From positions 1 through 12,833 of the IMG/VR virus record IMGVR_UViG_3300029248_000207: 12,833 nt of DNA. One strand, given 5' to 3'. Below the pieces are notes generated by a model that was not told the origin of the DNA, did no database searches, and worked only from the letters and a program-made list of their open reading frames with translations. The position numbers were made by a program, and so were the translations under genes. This stretch comes from a virus (lineage: Duplodnaviria > Heunggongvirae > Uroviricota > Caudoviricetes). Positions 4,861 through 10,713 of this stretch are shown here, piece by piece. Every line of letters starts with the position of its first letter. Position 1 is the first letter of the stretch.

Positions 4861-5223
4861 GGGGCTGATTCTGGATTCGACGGGATTTGCGAAACCCAAG
4901 GTGCATGCCGAGGGGCGGTTGGCCTCGTAAAAAGCCGCAAAAAATAGTCGCAAACGACGAAAACTACGCTTTAGCAGCTTAATAACCTGCTTAGAGCCCT
5001 CTCTCCCTAGCCTCCGCTCTTAGGACGGGGATCAAGAGAGGTCAAACCCAAAAGAGATCGCGTGGAAGCCCTGCCTGGGGTTGAAGCGTTAAAACTTAAT
5101 CAGGCTAGTTTGTTAGTGGCGTGTCCGTCCGCAGCTGGCAAGCGAATGTAAAGACTGACTAAGCATGTAGTACCGAGGATGTAGGAATTTCGGACGCGGG
5201 TTCAACTCCCGCCAGCTCCACCA
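4861..5223 (+). ncRNA. ssrA: tmRNA (SsrA), 363 nt
   Basis: Starts GGGGCTGATTCTGGATTCGACGGG, ends GCCAGCTCCACCA. Internal tag reading frame at 4950..4982 encodes ANDENYALAA followed by a stop. tRNA-like 3' end (GGTTCAACTCCCGCC). Confidence 0.95.
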
Positions 5224-5257
5224 AATGATGATCCGGATATGTCCGGTGAAGTACAGA

Positions 5258-5292
5258 AAGCCCGCACAGCACAAGCTCTGCGGGCTTTTTTG
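5258..5292 (+). terminator. Rho-independent terminator downstream of ssrA
   Basis: aGCCCGCAcagcacaagctcTGCGGGCtttttt: 7-bp GC-rich stem followed by a T6 run. Confidence 0.7.
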
Positions 5293-5335
5293 TGTCTGTC
5301 ATTGTCCGAGAACATCCGGCTAAATCCAGAGAAAA

Positions 5336-5387
5336 TTGGTACACGTTTAGGTACACGCTATACTGTGGTCCATTAAACGTGTACCAA
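5336..5387. promoter_or_regulatory. Inverted and direct repeats directly upstream of int (candidate Int/Vis binding sites or operator)
   Basis: TTGGTACACGTTT at 5336..5348 and its exact reverse complement AAACGTGTACCAA at 5375..5387 (13-bp perfect inverted repeat). GGTACACG occurs twice directly at 5338..5345 and 5350..5357. The int start codon is at 5407. Confidence 0.5.
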
Positions 5388-5406
5388 TTATGGAAGGAAT
5401 CCAGAC

Positions 5407-6612
5407 ATGGCGCGCATCACACGCCCCCTCACTAACAACGAGATCCTTAAAGCTAAACCCCGAGAAAAAGATTTCACTCTGCATGATGGGGACGGCCTGT
5501 TCTTACTCGTGAAAACATCTGGTAAAAAGCTCTGGCGCTTCCGATACCAACGTCCAGTAAGTAATAGCCGAACTAACCTGAGTCTCGGCTCATACCCTGC
5601 CCTTACACTCGCAGCAGCTCGTCAGATACGCGACCAATATTTGGCTACGCTCGCGCAGGGGATGGATCCGCAACAGCAACAAGAGCAAGCATCAGAGCAA
5701 CGTCAGATTGAGCTGGATAGCATTTTCTCAACTGTGGCCTCCAACTGGTTCAAAATGAAGAGCAAAAGCGTCACAGAGGACTACGCGAAGGATATTTGGC
5801 GTTCTCTAGATAAAGACGTATTCCCAGCAATAGGCGCGATACCTGTTCAGGAGATTAAGGCCAGAACGATAGTTGAAGCATTGGAACCAATCAAAGCACG
5901 CGGCGCATTAGAGACTGTTCGTCGCCTGGTCCAGCGCATTAACGAAATAATGATTTACGCAGTCAACACCGGNNNNNNNNNNNNNNNNNNNNNNNNNNNN
6001 NNATCAGGTGTTGGAATGGCATTTGAGAAACCCAAAAAGCAGAACATGCCCACGCTACGACCAGAAGAATTACCTAAGCTGATGCGTTCTCTGGTCATGT
6101 CGAATCTGTCTGTTTCGACTCGATGTCTTATTGAGTGGCAGCTCCTGACCCTAGTGCGCCCTTCTGAGGCTTCTGGTGCTCGGTGGGTCGAGATCGATCT
6201 CGATGCCAAACTCTGGACGATTCCCGCCGAACGAATGAAGGCTAAGCGTGAACACATTGTCCCTTTGTCACCTCAGGCTTTAGATATTTTGGAAGTAATG
6301 AAGCCAATCAGCGCTCATCGTGAACATATTTTCCCTAGTAGAAATGATCCAAAGCGGCCGATGAATAGTCAGACTGCTAATGCTGCTTTAAAACGTATAG
6401 GTTATGGTGGAAAATTAGTTGCACATGGTTTACGTTCAATAGCCAGTACAGCTCTCAACGAATCTAATTTTAATTCTGATGTGATTGAGTCTGCGCTGGC
6501 ACACACAGATAAGAATGAGGTTAGGAAAGCGTACAATCGGTCCATTTATTTGAAACAAAGAGTTGAGCTAATGGACTGGTGGGGTAATTTTGTTATGATT
6601 ACTAATAGATGA
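5407..6612 (+). CDS. intA: P4-family tyrosine integrase (IntA-like)
   Basis: 401-aa ORF next to ssrA; N-terminal arm-binding-type domain and C-terminal catalytic region with HGLRSIA and a terminal Tyr region (KAYNRS). A 30-nt N-run at 5973..6002 is in frame (10 unknown codons). Confidence 0.9.
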   Translation: MARITRPLTNNEILKAKPREKDFTLHDGDGLFLLVKTSGKKLWRFRYQRPVSNSRTNLSLGSYPALTLAAARQIRDQYLATLAQGMDPQQQQEQASEQRQIELDSIFSTVASNWFKMKSKSVTEDYAKDIWRSLDKDVFPAIGAIPVQEIKARTIVEALEPIKARGALETVRRLVQRINEIMIYAVNTXXXXXXXXXXXSGVGMAFEKPKKQNMPTLRPEELPKLMRSLVMSNLSVSTRCLIEWQLLTLVRPSEASGARWVEIDLDAKLWTIPAERMKAKREHIVPLSPQALDILEVMKPISAHREHIFPSRNDPKRPMNSQTANAALKRIGYGGKLVAHGLRSIASTALNESNFNSDVIESALAHTDKNEVRKAYNRSIYLKQRVELMDWWGNFVMITNR

Positions 6613-6625
6613 TAAAGGACTGCAC

Positions 6626-8068
6626 ATGAGCACAGTAAAAAATATTGATACCGTTTCATCAAACTTTAACATTTCGCCATCAATTCTTGATCAACTTGAT
6701 GTTGTTGATGTTTTATTAGAGTCAGATACGTTGCTTTTCATTGACCCTATGCTCCTCCCTGAAAGTAAGCATCCTGAAATGAAAGTGGATGCTGATAAGA
6801 AATACATAGATACTTTCACAAGTATCATTAAATTACTTAAAGCATCTAAGGTTCAGAATGATAATGATGTTGCTTGGAAGGCAGCCAAAAAGTTATTTTC
6901 ATTTTCCGAAATAGGATGGACATGTTTGGGTTATGGCTCATCAGCCAAAGGCTCAGGATTCGGGCCACACCTTGTGAACACAACAATGAATACTGCCTAT
7001 CAAATTATCAACATGGATATTGATGATCCTGACTTATTTATGGTCATGTCGTTATTTGAAGAAGGTATTGGGGCTGATAGAATTAGTGACATGACTACAA
7101 ATATAATATTTGAGTCCTTAGTGAAATTCTCAGAAAGAGTTAATCAAACCCTTCAAATCCCGACAAAAGAATTTTCTTTTAAAGGGAAAAAGTACATTGC
7201 CCCTCATAATCCATTAACAGATAAACCATTAATATTAGTTCCTAAAGATGTTGTCCGTGATTTGCCTATATCCACTGACTGGAGCGGTGCAGTCAGTACA
7301 ATGAAAGAAAACACGGACCTACGTGACAGAATTAATACCAACATTGGTAAACTGCTCGCATCAATGACCCAAAAAGAAAAAGCTGAAGCCAAGCGACGAG
7401 CTTTAGAGAAAAAAGAATATTTTGAAGACCTCCTAGAATTAATAAAAGAAGTAGAAAAAGAGCCTTACGATTTTAAAGCTGATAAGAATGGTGAATTATT
7501 TTGGTCAAGACTTGTATCTTCAATAGATAAAAAATACCCTTTCAATCTTTCTAAGTTTAATAAAAAACTAACCTTAGATGATGTAGAAAATTTGGTTGAT
7601 GAGATATTAACCCAATTCAAAGATCTAATTGAAAACAAAGGTCTATGGAAGGAAATGTGGGCAGATGATAAAAAACCAAGAAAAGAAAAAGCGGCTCAAC
7701 GTTTACTTTTTGCAGTAGCTTATTCATATTGCAAAGCCAATAACTTAGACATTAGCCCTGAGGCTGACTCTGGTAATGGACCTGTTGACTTCAAAGTCTC
7801 GCAAGGATTCGAGCAGAAAGTTTTAGTTGAAGTTAAGTTATCATCCAATGGTAAATTACTGCACGGATATGAAAAGCAATTAGAAATTTATAGAAATGGT
7901 GATGATACAGATCGAGCATTTTTCGTAATAGTTGATATCGGTCATTTAGGAGAAAAATACCAAAAGGTCCAGCAGGCTAGAATTGCAGCAGAAAATGAAG
8001 GTTTAAGAGCCTCAAAGATTATTCATATTGATGCACAACAAAAAGACTCTGCGAGCATTCGTATCTAG
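6626..8068 (+). CDS. Cargo protein of unknown function with a C-terminal PD-(D/E)xK nuclease-like domain; candidate anti-phage defence gene
   Basis: 480-aa ORF, uninterrupted and AT-rich compared with its neighbours; RBS-like aaggac upstream. C-terminal motifs: GPVDF (Asp codon at 7787..7789), VEVK (Glu at 7829..7831, Lys at 7835..7837), then QLEIY (QxxxY, as in RecB/Cas4-type nucleases). The N-terminal ~350 aa are unrecognised, with a Gly-rich patch (GYGSSAKGSGFG) and a charged coiled-coil-like stretch. It lies between int and cos/psu. Confidence 0.8.
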   Translation: MSTVKNIDTVSSNFNISPSILDQLDVVDVLLESDTLLFIDPMLLPESKHPEMKVDADKKYIDTFTSIIKLLKASKVQNDNDVAWKAAKKLFSFSEIGWTCLGYGSSAKGSGFGPHLVNTTMNTAYQIINMDIDDPDLFMVMSLFEEGIGADRISDMTTNIIFESLVKFSERVNQTLQIPTKEFSFKGKKYIAPHNPLTDKPLILVPKDVVRDLPISTDWSGAVSTMKENTDLRDRINTNIGKLLASMTQKEKAEAKRRALEKKEYFEDLLELIKEVEKEPYDFKADKNGELFWSRLVSSIDKKYPFNLSKFNKKLTLDDVENLVDEILTQFKDLIENKGLWKEMWADDKKPRKEKAAQRLLFAVAYSYCKANNLDISPEADSGNGPVDFKVSQGFEQKVLVEVKLSSNGKLLHGYEKQLEIYRNGDDTDRAFFVIVDIGHLGEKYQKVQQARIAAENEGLRASKIIHIDAQQKDSASIRI

Positions 8069-8340: not shown

Positions 8341-8911
8341 CTAGCGTGCGGCCAGTTCTGCACGTCGGCGGGTGTAAATCAGGTTCTGTGCTGGGGTGAA
8401 TTTCTGGCGATTATCATCCCGCGAAGCCGCATCAGGCCTGAATCCGATGCCCGTTAAAATATCGCTGTCCTGCGCGGAATAATTAATTTTTTCACCTGCG
8501 GCCAGCCACACCGACAGGGCTTCACGCAGATAATCAACCGAGTGCTGCATGGCGCTCTGTTTTACTGCGGGAAGCTGTTCGTTATACCCCATCAGCTCAG
8601 GTGCCAGCGTGGCGGCCAGCTCCGCGCCGTGCTGCTGCATAAAGTCATGGAGCCGGTTGCGGATGCTGATGTGCTGCACCTCCTCATGTGAGCGGATATN
8701 NNNNNNNNNCGGCGGCCTGATTAATTTCCCACTTTTTCACGTCGATATTGTCGCGCAAATCCTGCATTCTGAGCGGAATTTGTTCGTCACCGGCAAGGAG
8801 CTGTTCACGGTATTCCCGTTCAAGGTCTGCCAGTTCGGCTTTACGTTTCAGCCAGGTGTTTTTGTTCGTCTGACAGGCCTCAAAGGCCTGCTGTATGGTC
8901 ACAGTGGTCAC
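8341..8911 (-). CDS. psu: Polarity suppression protein Psu (capsid decoration / Rho antagonist), interrupted by a 10-nt N-run
   Basis: Two minus-strand ORFs (8684..8911, 75 aa; 8341..8679, 112 aa) together read like P4 Psu (MTTVTIQQAFEACQTNKN...EINQAA [gap] IRSHEEVQHISIRNRLHDFMQQHG...). GTG start at 8911, preceded by aggagag. The N-run at 8700..8709 separates the halves, which are in different frames as written. Confidence 0.8.
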
Positions 8912-8926: not shown

Positions 8927-9166
8927 TTAATGCCGGAACGGCGAGCTGTAGCAGCCCTGTACTTTACGCGGCGGCGGTGGCGTCACCGGGGCGGGGTCGG
9001 GTTTCTCCGGTGCGGCACGTATCACACCGTCAACCGACTCGATGGTGCGGAAAGTGGCCGAGCATTCGATATTGGTACACTGGTGATAACGCTGTTTGAC
9101 GTTTTCCGACAGATAACGGCTGGTACGGACGTGCGCGGTCTTTTTGCAGAACGGGCAGTGAAACAT
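8927..9166 (-). CDS. ogr: Ogr/Delta-family zinc-finger late-gene transcriptional activator (single-domain, Ogr-sized)
   Basis: 79-aa ORF MFHCPFCKKTAHVRTSRYLSENVKQRYHQCTNIECSATF...; the CxxC...CxxxxC arrangement and sequence closely resemble P2 Ogr / P4 Delta. RBS gaggg upstream; the sid stop codon (9170..9172) is 3 nt upstream of the start. Confidence 0.88.
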   Translation of the reverse strand: MFHCPFCKKTAHVRTSRYLSENVKQRYHQCTNIECSATFRTIESVDGVIRAAPEKPDPAPVTPPPPRKVQGCYSSPFRH

Positions 9167-10002: not shown

Positions 10003-10081
10003 AAACAGACCTTAAAATCAGGCTGGCCAGAGAAAGGTCGCAGGAAAACCTTACTCACCGTTTGTTTTTTTACTTATAACT

Positions 10082-10184
10082 ATTCACCACTGTTCACCTT
10101 AAATAAAAAGATAAGTAATACAGCAAGTTAAATGGTGAACAGTTGAAGGTCTGACTGTTCACCGTCTGTTCACCACTGTTCACC
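10082..10184. repeat. Cluster of TGTTCACC octamer iterons (candidate alpha-protein binding sites / replication origin)
   Basis: Exact TGTTCACC at 10091..10098, 10156..10163, 10167..10174 and 10177..10184 (the last three spaced 11 and 10 bp apart). Inverted copy GGTGAACA at 10134..10141. Degenerate ATTCACC at 10082..10088. Confidence 0.7.
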
Positions 10185-10264
10185 CTTCAGTTTTGCTCTG
10201 GCTATATCATCTAGACTTTATTACGATTAAAAACGAAAAGTATATAACTAAAAGAGATATTAAT

Positions 10265-10446: not shown

Positions 10447-10713
10447 ATGCACACCGCTTTTTCTTCCCCGTCTTCTGCCCCTGCCGCGCCGCTGATGCCG
10501 GTTTCTGATACCGTTCACGAGCGCTTTATCCGTCTGCCCGAAGTGATGCATCTGTGCGGCCTGTCCCGCTCGACCATTTACGACCTCATCAGCCGGGAAG
10601 CCTTCCCGAAACAAATCTCCCTCGGCGGAAAAAACGTGGCGTGGGCGCAGTCTGAAATCACTGCATGGATGGCGGATCGCATTGCCGAACGTAACCGGGG
10701 CTATGACGCATGA
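10447..10713 (+). CDS. alpA: AlpA/Vis-family phage regulatory protein (excisionase-like HTH)
   Basis: 88-aa ORF (P4 Vis is orf88); the RLPEVMHLCGLSRSTIYDLISREAFPKQISLGGKNVAWAQSEITAWMADR region resembles the AlpA/Vis winged-helix; RBS gagg 8 nt upstream. Confidence 0.85.
   Translation: MHTAFSSPSSAPAAPLMPVSDTVHERFIRLPEVMHLCGLSRSTIYDLISREAFPKQISLGGKNVAWAQSEITAWMADRIAERNRGYDA

What the first reader, a model, noticed from the sequence alone, without database searches (positions are those of the whole stretch)
5336..5387. 13-bp perfect inverted repeat with an extra direct copy immediately upstream of int
TTGGTACACGTTT and AAACGTGTACCAA flank a 26-bp spacer, with a second direct GGTACACG copy. They sit 20 to 70 bp upstream of the int start codon, between the ssrA terminator and int. 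This is where Int arm-type sites and Vis/AlpA sites that control int expression and excision would be expected.
Basis: partly seen in the sequence, partly recalled or inferred. Interest (0 to 1): 0.4.

Follow-up and report, generated by a model that had tools for sequence, protein, structure and literature searches.

The report
Integrase arm sites over int promoter
The inverted repeat upstream of int is the set of docking ("arm-type") sites for the integrase of a P4-like satellite prophage inserted in the tmRNA gene; it is laid out exactly as in phage P4 and sits on the int promoter, so it is a real but ordinary feature.

Summary
The repeat is a perfect 16-bp inverted repeat (5334-5349 / 5374-5389), with a third, direct GGTACACG copy at 5350-5357.

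The window holds a P4-like satellite prophage inserted in the 3' end of ssrA. An empty site in another E. coli places the crossover core at about 5201-5224, so the repeats lie inside the element, about 110 bp from the core.

A near-identical island (L001) has the same 23 bp, AATTGGTACACGTTTAGGTACAC, at its right end, about 52 bp from the attR core.

Across 78 related ssrA elements the layout is constant. The motif changes in concert in all copies: GGTACACG, GGTATACG or GGCCTACG, with GGCCCA in CP4-57 and GGGGGCAT in P4. The motif class follows the integrase N-terminal arm-binding domain. It does not follow Vis/AlpA or the catalytic domain.

The GenBank record of P4 annotates the same arrangement as "attP arm sequence repeats".

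The sites enclose a conserved sigma-70-type promoter (-35 TTGGTA, -10 TATACT). This predicts Int autorepression, as shown for P4 and KplE1. Binding and repression are inferred, not tested.

Verdict: a new member of a known kind, of low interest.

The parts
4861..5223 (+). ssrA (tmRNA gene), the integration target
   Evidence: ARAGORN finds a tmRNA with tag ANDENYALAA. It is annotated as ssrA in L001.
5201..5224 (.). attL core region (TTCAACTCCCGCCAGCTCCACCAA), the 3' end of ssrA. The sequence is identical to the empty-site attB up to 5224, and element DNA begins at 5225.
   Evidence: Comparison of attB (L005), attL (window) and attR (L001 29934-29965).
5231..5246 (+). Core-proximal RTCCR direct repeats (ATCCGG at 5231, GTCCGG at 5241, 10-bp phase). 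Candidate RDF (Vis) or host-factor sites, not tested.
   Evidence: Densest RTCCR cluster in the window. The repeats are conserved, and similar repeats are present in the P' arms of P4 and CP4-57.
5257..5294 (+). Intrinsic terminator for ssrA, supplied by the element (stem 5257-5270 / 5275-5288, followed by a T-run)
   Evidence: Inverted repeat I2, terminator scan, strongly conserved.
5304..5329 (+). Second cluster of RTCCR direct repeats (GTCCG at 5304, ATCCG at 5314, ATCCA at 5324, 10-bp phase), immediately left of the arm-site pair. Candidate Vis/AlpA or host-factor sites.
   Evidence: The block TCCGAG-N4-TCCG-N6-ATCCRG is shared with P4.
5334..5345 (+). Arm-type site P'1 (AATTGGTACACG). TTGGTA at 5336-5341 also serves as the -35 hexamer of the predicted int promoter.
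   Evidence: The 23-bp block is repeated at the right end. TTGGTA is the -35 in 75 of 78 loci.
5348..5357 (+). Arm-type site P'2 (TAGGTACACG), 12 bp from P'1, inside the promoter spacer
   Evidence: The same 12-bp period is seen in all relatives, in P4 and in CP4-57.
5359..5364 (+). Predicted -10 hexamer TATACT of Pint, 17 nt after the -35
   Evidence: Promoter scan. The hexamer fits TAnnnT in 77 of 78 related loci.
5365..5373 (-). Decayed inner inverted copy (GTGGTCCAT). The same position holds an intact GTGTACCAA or GTATACC copy in about 20 relatives.
   Evidence: third copy at offset 26.
5376..5389 (-). Arm-type site P'3, the inverted copy (AACGTGTACCAATT), about +10 to +25 relative to the predicted transcription start
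   Evidence: It is present in 77 of 78 loci and carries the same motif variant as the direct copies.
5407..6612 (+). int, a P4-family tyrosine integrase with an N-terminal arm-binding domain (aa 8-94). A masked N-run at 5973-6002 inflates its length.
   Evidence: Pfam PF13356, PF22022 and PF00589. It is 35% identical to P4 Int. N-run.
10447..10713 (+). vis/alpA-like gene for the recombination directionality factor and late regulator (88 aa)
   Evidence: Pfam PF05930 Phage_AlpA. It is 70% identical to P4 Vis (ORF88).

Best explanation
The three GGTACACG copies, plus one decayed copy, are the P'-arm arm-type binding sites of the integrase of a P4-like satellite prophage inserted in the 3' end of ssrA. 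The N-terminal arm-binding domain of Int (aa 8-94) would bind these sites and a matching tandem pair on the other arm, at the right end of the element, which lies outside the window. The catalytic domain would bind the core in ssrA. Together these contacts would bridge arms and core into the intasome that carries out integration and excision. Because int is read outward from attL, the same sites enclose its promoter: P'1 contains the -35, P'2 lies in the spacer, and the inverted copy lies just downstream of the start. Bound Int should therefore block RNA polymerase and repress its own gene, as reported for P4 and for KplE1 IntS. Shown here: the position inside the element on both arms, the family-wide conserved layout, the concerted change of the motif together with the Int N-domain, and the positional match to the annotated P4 arm repeats. 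Inferred: physical binding by Int, activity of the promoter, and autorepression.
For: 1. The element is a P4-like satellite. It encodes int, psu, delta, sid, vis, an icd-like gene, DUF5375 and the alpha primase.
2. The core is the ssrA 3' end. An empty site (L005) matches attL up to 5224 and matches attR from about L001 29950 onward. The repeats are therefore internal to the element, about 110 bp (P') and about 52 bp (P) from the core.
3. The perfect 23-bp block AATTGGTACACGTTTAGGTACAC is present at both ends of L001. L001 is 99.6% identical to the window.
4. Fifteen elements carry a + strand pair with a 12-bp period at attR, each with its own motif variant, at a constant distance from the core-like ATTCAGACTCCGCCAGC.
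5. In 78 loci with Int 67-91% identical, position 5 of the motif is the same in both direct copies and the inverted copy in 74 (41 T/T/T, 33 C/C/C). L076 has GGCCTACG in all three copies.
6. The motif class follows the Int N-domain. L030 has Vis 97.7%, Int C-part 87% and Int N-part 68% identical to the window, and its motif is GGTATACG. L010-L027 have Vis about 63% and Int N-part 86-90% identical, and their motif is GGTACACG. Seven residues (4, 11, 13, 19, 23, 57, 76) separate the two classes perfectly, and none lies beyond aa 76.
7. P4 has Vis 70% identical and Int 35% identical. Its layout is the same with a different motif, GGGGGCAT: a pair, 53 bp, the core, 112 bp, a pair, about 15 bp, then an inverted copy at the int start. 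NC_001609 annotates these as 'attP arm sequence repeat'. CP4-57 intA of K-12 has the same layout with TAGGCCCA.
8. The promoter-like site TTGGTA-17-TATACT lies exactly over the sites. The -10 fits TAnnnT in 77 of 78 loci.
9. Literature: P4 Pint is repressed by Int through DNA binding near the transcription start, and also by Vis (Piazzolla 2006, as summarised in PMC7286903 and PMC2951348). An attL that overlaps the int promoter leads to autorepression in KplE1 (PMC2951348).
Against: No binding, footprint or expression data exist for this element. The right arm was read in near-identical and related islands, not in the window's own genome. The concerted changes represent only about four independent motif alleles, so shared ancestry inflates the locus counts. 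The C/T difference is a single base and could be tolerated by one protein. The whole P' arm is strongly conserved, so conservation alone does not single out the motif. The promoter is only a 9-of-12 consensus match.
Confidence: 0.8

Rival explanations
1. The repeats are binding sites of the Vis/AlpA-type recombination directionality factor, which would bind them to bend attL for excision and to regulate int.
For: The element encodes an AlpA-family protein 70% identical to P4 Vis. Directionality factors typically bind direct repeats about one helical turn apart, and the pair has a 12-bp period. Vis also lowers P4 int expression.
Against: The motif does not follow Vis. P4 Vis is 70% identical, with a nearly identical helix-turn-helix segment, yet the P4 motif is GGGGGCAT. 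Elements with only about 63% Vis identity keep GGTACACG, and L030 with 97.7% Vis identity has GGTATACG. All class-specific residues lie in the Int N-domain. The P4 record annotates the homologous repeats as arm repeats. A better candidate for Vis is the RTCCR repeat block at 5231-5246 and 5304-5329, which is shared with P4.
Confidence: 0.07
2. The inverted repeat acts as a hairpin in RNA (a leader or attenuator of int, or a second terminator for ssrA read-through) or as a DNA cruciform.
For: As RNA, 5325-5410 folds at -31.7 kcal/mol, with a z-score of -5.2. The C-to-T change in the left arm is matched by G-to-A in the right arm, which preserves pairing.
Against: The left arm is the -35 of the predicted promoter, so it would not be in the int transcript. 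The direct copy and the attR pair change in concert too, although they have no inverted partner. No T-run follows the stem. P4 and CP4-57 keep the site layout with unrelated sequences.
Confidence: 0.03
3. The 23-bp direct repeat at both ends is the attachment core itself (attL/attR), so the element would be inserted downstream of ssrA rather than in it.
For: There are perfect 23-bp direct repeats about 9.7 kb apart, bracketing all the satellite genes.
Against: Empty-site strains join the ssrA 3' end directly to the flank that begins at L001 about 29936. They lack both the 110 bp right of ssrA and the 23-bp block. A degenerate ssrA 3' end lies 52 bp right of the right-hand copy. int would lie outside a core placed at its own -35.
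Confidence: 0.01
4. The repeat is an operator for another element or host regulator, unrelated to recombination.
For: It is a palindromic arrangement over a promoter.
Against: A copy on the far arm of the att site has no promoter context. The motif co-varies with the Int N-domain. The P4 precedent also argues against it.
Confidence: 0.04

Closest known systems
Phage P4 attP arm sequence repeats and the Pint promoter (Pierson & Kahn 1987; Piazzolla et al. 2006)
   Same: The order and spacing match: a tandem pair (12-bp period), about 53 bp, the core in the 3' end of a tRNA-like gene, about 110 bp, a tandem pair, 15-20 bp, an inverted copy, then int. The flanking TCCGAG..TCCG..AATCCRG block is shared. 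The satellite gene set is the same, and Vis is 70% identical. The -35 lies in the first copy and a -10-like hexamer follows the second copy.
   Different: The motif is GGTACACG rather than GGGGGCAT. The target is ssrA rather than leuX. Int is only 35% identical. In P4 the inverted copy abuts the annotated int start, whereas here it ends 18-20 bp upstream of it.
CP4-57 cryptic prophage of E. coli K-12 (ssrA-intA, AlpA)
   Same: Same attB (the ssrA 3' end) and same right-hand flank (ypjA). Same layout of two direct copies plus one inverted copy upstream of intA, and a pair near attR.
   Different: The motif is TAGGCCCA. The Int N-part is 52% identical and AlpA 39% identical. CP4-57 is a 22-kb non-satellite island. 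AlpA is annotated as an activator of intA.
KplE1 (CPS-53) attL / intS promoter with IntS arm-type and TorI sites (Panis et al. 2010, PMC2951348)
   Same: int is read outward from attL, and its promoter overlaps the P' arm-type sites, giving negative autoregulation.
   Different: A different integrase lineage, target (argW), directionality factor (TorI) and site sequences. In KplE1 the regulation was shown experimentally.
Lambda Int arm-type sites (P1, P2, P'1-P'3)
   Same: A heterobivalent integrase whose N-domain binds short repeats on both arms, away from the core.
   Different: The lambda int promoter is not in attL. The fold family of the N-domain (PF13356 here) and the number and orientation of the sites differ.

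Membership tests
Arm-type sites of a heterobivalent (P4-family) tyrosine integrase | The cognate integrase carries an N-terminal arm-binding domain | tested here: met
   PF13356 Arm-DNA-bind_3, aa 8-94, E = 4.7e-24
Arm-type sites of a heterobivalent (P4-family) tyrosine integrase | A short repeated motif, distinct from the core sequence, lies inside the element tens to about 150 bp from the core | tested here: met
   The core is at 5201-5224, defined by the empty site. The sites are at 5334-5389, and GGTACACG is unrelated to the core.
Arm-type sites of a heterobivalent (P4-family) tyrosine integrase | The motif is present on both arms (P and P') | tested here: met
   A 23-bp copy sits at the right end of L001, and 14 further elements have the pair there. 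The test was made in relatives, because the window lacks the right end.
Arm-type sites of a heterobivalent (P4-family) tyrosine integrase | The motif sequence follows the specificity of the Int N-domain | tested here: met
   The motif class follows Int N-part identity, not the Int C-part or Vis. Seven class-specific residues all lie at or before aa 76.
Arm-type sites of a heterobivalent (P4-family) tyrosine integrase | The Int N-domain physically binds the sites | not testable with these tools
   This needs EMSA or footprinting.
Arm-type sites of a heterobivalent (P4-family) tyrosine integrase | The sites correspond in position to the P4 attP arm repeats | tested here: met
   The NC_001609 annotation and sequence show the same order and distances.
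Autoregulated int promoter overlapping attL (P4 Pint / KplE1 PintS type) | int lies next to attL and is transcribed away from the core | tested here: met
Autoregulated int promoter overlapping attL (P4 Pint / KplE1 PintS type) | The promoter hexamers overlap the arm-type sites | tested here: inconclusive
   There is a consensus match, TTGGTA-17-TATACT, and the -10 fits TAnnnT in 77 of 78 loci. No transcription start has been mapped.
Autoregulated int promoter overlapping attL (P4 Pint / KplE1 PintS type) | Int represses the promoter | not testable with these tools
   This needs reporter assays with and without Int.
Vis/AlpA (RDF) binding sites | The element encodes an AlpA-family directionality factor | tested here: met
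   PF05930; 70% identical to P4 Vis
Vis/AlpA (RDF) binding sites | The motif follows the directionality factor across elements | tested here: not met
   Vis identity and motif class are uncoupled.

The most novel reading that the evidence does not exclude
Satellites and islands that target ssrA may have diversified their arm-site specificity while keeping the same core target. At least three motif alleles occur at ssrA: GGTACACG, GGTATACG and GGCCTACG/GGCCCA. The change is confined to the N-terminal arm-binding domain of Int; the catalytic part stays up to 87% identical where the N-part is 64-68% identical. This could make the recombination machineries of elements that compete for, and stack in tandem at, one attB orthogonal to each other. 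The seven class-specific residues would then be a natural specificity code for the PF13356 domain.
Probability: 0.3. Interest if true: 0.4.

Novelty: new member of a known kind. Interest (0 to 1): 0.2.

Why it matters
The result defines the complete att site of a widespread family of ssrA-inserted P4-like satellites: the core, the P and P' arm sites, and the embedded int promoter. That helps delimit such islands in genomes. It also predicts how int is kept low in the lysogen. Finally, it gives a small natural set of paired variants (Int N-domain and arm motif) for studying DNA recognition by the PF13356 domain. It does not reveal a new mechanism.

Tried and rejected
1. I took the 23-bp direct repeat at both ends as a possible att core. 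This was rejected once the empty site (L005) showed the junctions lie in the ssrA 3' end.
2. I looked for the motif at the right end within the window itself. That is impossible, because the window ends inside the alpha primase gene. I used L001 (99.6% identical) and relatives instead.
3. One-mismatch copies elsewhere, such as 9072-9084, are at chance level: 5 found against 3.4 expected for the 13-mer, and 14 against 22.5 for the 8-mer in L001.
4. I considered the RNA hairpin reading. It is rejected mainly because the direct and attR copies co-vary without a partner, and because the left arm is the -35.
5. The apparently split psu and the 401-aa Int turned out to be artefacts of masked N-runs whose length differs from the real sequence.
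6. The primary P4 papers (Piazzolla 2006; Cali 2004) are not in the held library. Their content is cited only as summarised in PMC7286903 and PMC2951348.
7. I tried to match the conserved AAAGTTGAAT box to the IHF consensus by eye. The fit was not convincing, and no claim is made.
8. Two literature queries and three scripts failed on formal errors and were rerun.

Full report
**Observation**

The reported repeat is present at the stated coordinates: TTGGTACACGTTT at 5336-5348, AAACGTGTACCAA at 5375-5387, and an extra direct GGTACACG at 5350-5357. The repeat finder extends the perfect complementarity to 16 nt, AATTGGTACACGTTTA at 5334-5349 and its complement at 5374-5389, with 24 nt between the arms.

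GGTACACG occurs three times in the window, all at this spot, against 0.24 expected; none of 200 shuffles reached 3. A 16-nt perfect inverted repeat with a loop of 60 nt or less is the longest in the window. It was never reached in 300 Markov simulations, whose maximum was 15.

The tmRNA gene is at 4861-5223. A terminator hairpin lies at 5257-5288. The int gene runs from 5407 to 6612.

**What the element is**

The left part of the window is the E. coli nadK-recN-bamE-ratA-smpB-ssrA region. To the right of ssrA lies a P4-like satellite prophage. Its genes are:
- an integrase with the PF13356 arm-binding, PF22022 and PF00589 domains;
- a 480-aa ORF of unknown function;
- psu, an Ogr/Delta zinc-finger gene and a sid-like gene on the minus strand;
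- an AlpA-family gene 70% identical to P4 Vis;
- an Ash/Icd-like gene, DUF5375 and the start of the alpha primase.

A nearly identical island occurs in E. coli KMi029 (L001). It is 99.6-99.7% identical over the whole window.

**Where the element ends**

Many E. coli strains have ssrA followed directly by ypjA. I fetched one of them, EC26, as L005. Comparing attB, attL and attR shows two things. The window is identical to the empty site up to 5224, in ...TTCAACTCCCGCCAGCTCCACCAA. The empty-site flank ATCATGATTGGACGG... resumes in L001 at about 29950, after an imperfect copy of the ssrA end (ATTCAGACTCC-GCCAGCCCCCAA).

The core is therefore the 3' end of ssrA, as for CP4-57. Everything from 5225 onward is element DNA, including the ssrA terminator and the repeats.

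In L001 the exact block AATTGGTACACGTTTAGGTACAC, equal to window 5334-5356, recurs at 29859-29881. That is inside the element, about 52 bp left of the attR core copy. I first considered that this 23-bp direct repeat might be the att core itself. The empty site excludes that reading.

The same pair, GGTACACG-N4-GGTACACA, is at the right end of two more E. coli elements whose int is 87-89% identical and whose cargo genes differ (L003 and L004).

**Family-wide comparison**

A scan of one genome per species returned 79 loci across the Enterobacterales with Int 67-91% identical. Nearly all lie 180-205 bp downstream of ssrA.

All but a few degraded loci keep the same layout upstream of int: ATTGG-N6, a second copy 12 bp later, a TAnnnT hexamer, an inverted copy, about 20 bp, then the ATG. 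About 20 loci also have an intact inner inverted copy, where the window has the decayed GTGGTCCAT at 5365-5373.

The motif changes in concert:
- Position 5 is the same in the two direct copies and the inverted copy in 74 of 78 loci (41 T/T/T, 33 C/C/C).
- L076 carries GGCCTACG in all three copies, and L068 carries GGCC-type variants of the motif (GGCCTAAG, GGCCCACG).
- Where the right end falls inside the fetched flank (12 loci, plus L001, L003 and L004), a + strand pair with the same 12-bp period and the element's own variant is present. The pair is GGTACACG/GGTACAC(A/G) or GGTATACG/GGTATAC(C/G). It always lies about 52 bp left of ATTCAGACTCCGCCAGC.

These counts reflect only a few independent changes, so they are not independent observations. 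Each change does, however, affect all five copies on both arms.

**Which protein do the sites follow?**

Identity to the window's proteins was computed separately for the first 100 aa of Int, the rest of Int, and Vis.
- Elements with near-identical Vis and a similar catalytic part but a divergent Int N-part carry GGTATACG. L030 has Vis 97.7%, Int C-part 87% and Int N-part 68%. L066 has 89.8%, 84% and 67%.
- Elements with divergent Vis (about 63%) but a similar Int N-part (86-90%) keep GGTACACG (L010-L027).
- Seven residues (4, 11, 13, 19, 23, 57, 76) separate the two classes without overlap. No position beyond residue 76 does. Six of the seven lie within the Pfam arm-binding domain match (aa 8-94); residue 4 lies just before it.
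- P4 is the extreme case. Its Vis is 70% identical, with an almost identical helix-turn-helix segment, while its Int is 35% identical. Its motif is entirely different.

The motif thus tracks the Int N-domain and not Vis/AlpA.

**Comparison with P4 and CP4-57**

The GenBank record of P4 (NC_001609) annotates "attP arm sequence repeat" features. In int orientation, they and the core run as follows:

| P4 feature | Coordinates | Note |
|---|---|---|
| Tandem pair | 4174-4151 | followed by 53 bp |
| Core | 4097-4078 | followed by 112 bp |
| Tandem pair ATTGGGGGCATA / ATTGGGGGCATC | 3965-3942 | followed by 15 bp |
| Inverted copy | 3926-3915 | at the int start |

This is the arrangement found here, distance for distance, with GGGGGCAT in place of GGTACACG. 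The block left of the int-proximal pair (TCCGAG-N4-TCCG-N6-ATCCRG) is also shared.

CP4-57 of K-12 has TAGGCCCA twice plus one inverted copy upstream of intA. It also has a degenerate pair near its attR.

**Promoter**

The consensus scan places a sigma-70-type site exactly on the repeats: -35 TTGGTA at 5336-5341, a 17-nt spacer, and -10 TATACT at 5359-5364. Across the family the -35 is TTGGTA in 75 of 78 loci. The hexamer at the -10 position fits TAnnnT in 77 of 78 loci although its middle bases vary.

So P'1 holds the -35, P'2 lies in the spacer, and the inverted copy lies about +10 to +25 from the predicted start.

According to PMC7286903 and PMC2951348, which summarise Piazzolla et al. 2006, P4 Int represses Pint by binding DNA near the transcription start, and Vis also lowers int expression. 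PMC2951348 shows the same logic experimentally for KplE1 intS and predicts it wherever attL overlaps the int promoter.

**Mechanism proposed**

The Int N-domain binds the P' sites (window 5334-5389) and the P pair at the far end. The catalytic domain binds the core in ssrA. Bridging the arms to the core builds the intasome for integration and excision. In the prophage, occupancy of the P' sites occludes Pint and keeps Int low.

The following are shown by the computations here: the position of the sites, the copies on both arms, the conserved layout, the co-variation with the Int N-domain, and the positional match to P4. The following are inferred: binding by Int, promoter activity and repression.

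**Rivals**

- Vis/AlpA sites. The motif is uncoupled from Vis identity. The phased RTCCR repeats at 5231-5246 and 5304-5329 are a better candidate for Vis. They form the densest such cluster in the window, are conserved, and are shared with P4.
- An RNA or DNA hairpin. It would fold well, at -31.7 kcal/mol with z = -5.2, and the C/T change is formally compensatory. But the direct copy and the attR pair co-vary without any partner, and the left arm is the -35.
- The 23-bp repeat as the core. This is refuted by the empty site.
- An unrelated operator. This is unlikely given the copy on the far arm.

**Novelty and score**

This is the ssrA-specific counterpart of the P4 attP arm repeats and Pint. 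It is a new member of a known kind, and a specialist would expect it. I found no description of these particular sites in the literature searched, but the search was limited.

The most novel reading still open is that the Int N-domain and the arm motif have diversified together among elements that share one attB and stack there in tandem. That could make their recombination systems orthogonal. Interest is 0.2.

Noticed in passing
window 5973-6002 and 8700-8709: These are masked N-runs. The 30-N run in int replaces 21 nt of the near-identical L001, so mask length does not equal real length. The 401-aa Int is probably 398 aa. The apparent split of psu into two ORFs (8341-8679 and 8684-8911) is an artefact.
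   Followed up: yes
window 6626-8068 (+): A 480-aa ORF lies between int and psu, at the position of the variable defence hotspot of P4-like satellites. It has no Pfam hit. It gives a partial match to the PADLOC candidate family PDC-M36A (E = 1e-13, aa 21-214) and a full-length match to phrog_30194, which has no known function. Relatives carry other cargo at this position: an AAA ATPase plus DUF4435 in L003, and an HNH protein plus an AAA ATPase in L004.
   Followed up: partly
window 5231-5246, 5304-5329, 5399: Direct repeats of RTCCR in about a 10-bp phase form two clusters in the P' arm. This is the densest such cluster in the window. The repeats are strongly conserved in relatives and are shared with the P' arms of P4 and CP4-57. 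They are candidate Vis/AlpA or host-factor sites.
   Followed up: partly
L001 29886-29895 and the same position in 12 other loci: A conserved AAAGTTGAAT box lies 3-4 bp after the P-arm pair at the right end of the elements. Its function is unknown. I saw no convincing match to the IHF consensus by eye.
   Followed up: no
L001 29934-29965; L003 and L004 attR: The ssrA-like core copy at attR is imperfect (ACTCC-GCCAGC...) and varies between strains to the right of GCCAGC. Depending on the crossover point, excision could leave an altered ssrA 3' end, as reported for CP4So (PMC5148205).
   Followed up: partly
L013, L019, L035 downstream of the attR pair: In these loci the attR core is followed by AAATTCTCCATC(C/G)GTGATTACCAGAGTCAT(C/T)CGAT, which is the CP4-57-type P' arm sequence. 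A second ssrA-targeting island therefore sits in tandem behind the satellite.
   Followed up: no
window 5257-5294: The intrinsic terminator that serves ssrA in this strain is element DNA. It lies to the right of the attL junction at 5224. Empty-site strains have a different sequence downstream of ssrA.
   Followed up: partly
window 10080-10190; L001 28971-29253: Clusters of TGTTCACC/GGTGAACAG repeats occur here, including two 114-nt direct repeats to the right of the alpha gene. They correspond to the P4 ori type 1 repeats and crr and are standard P4 replication elements.
   Followed up: no
L002 (E. coli 2022CK-00450): The same attL and int (99.9% identical) are followed directly by IS1 and a large deletion that reaches the glaH region. 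This is a remnant in which int and its arm sites survive without the rest of the satellite.
   Followed up: no
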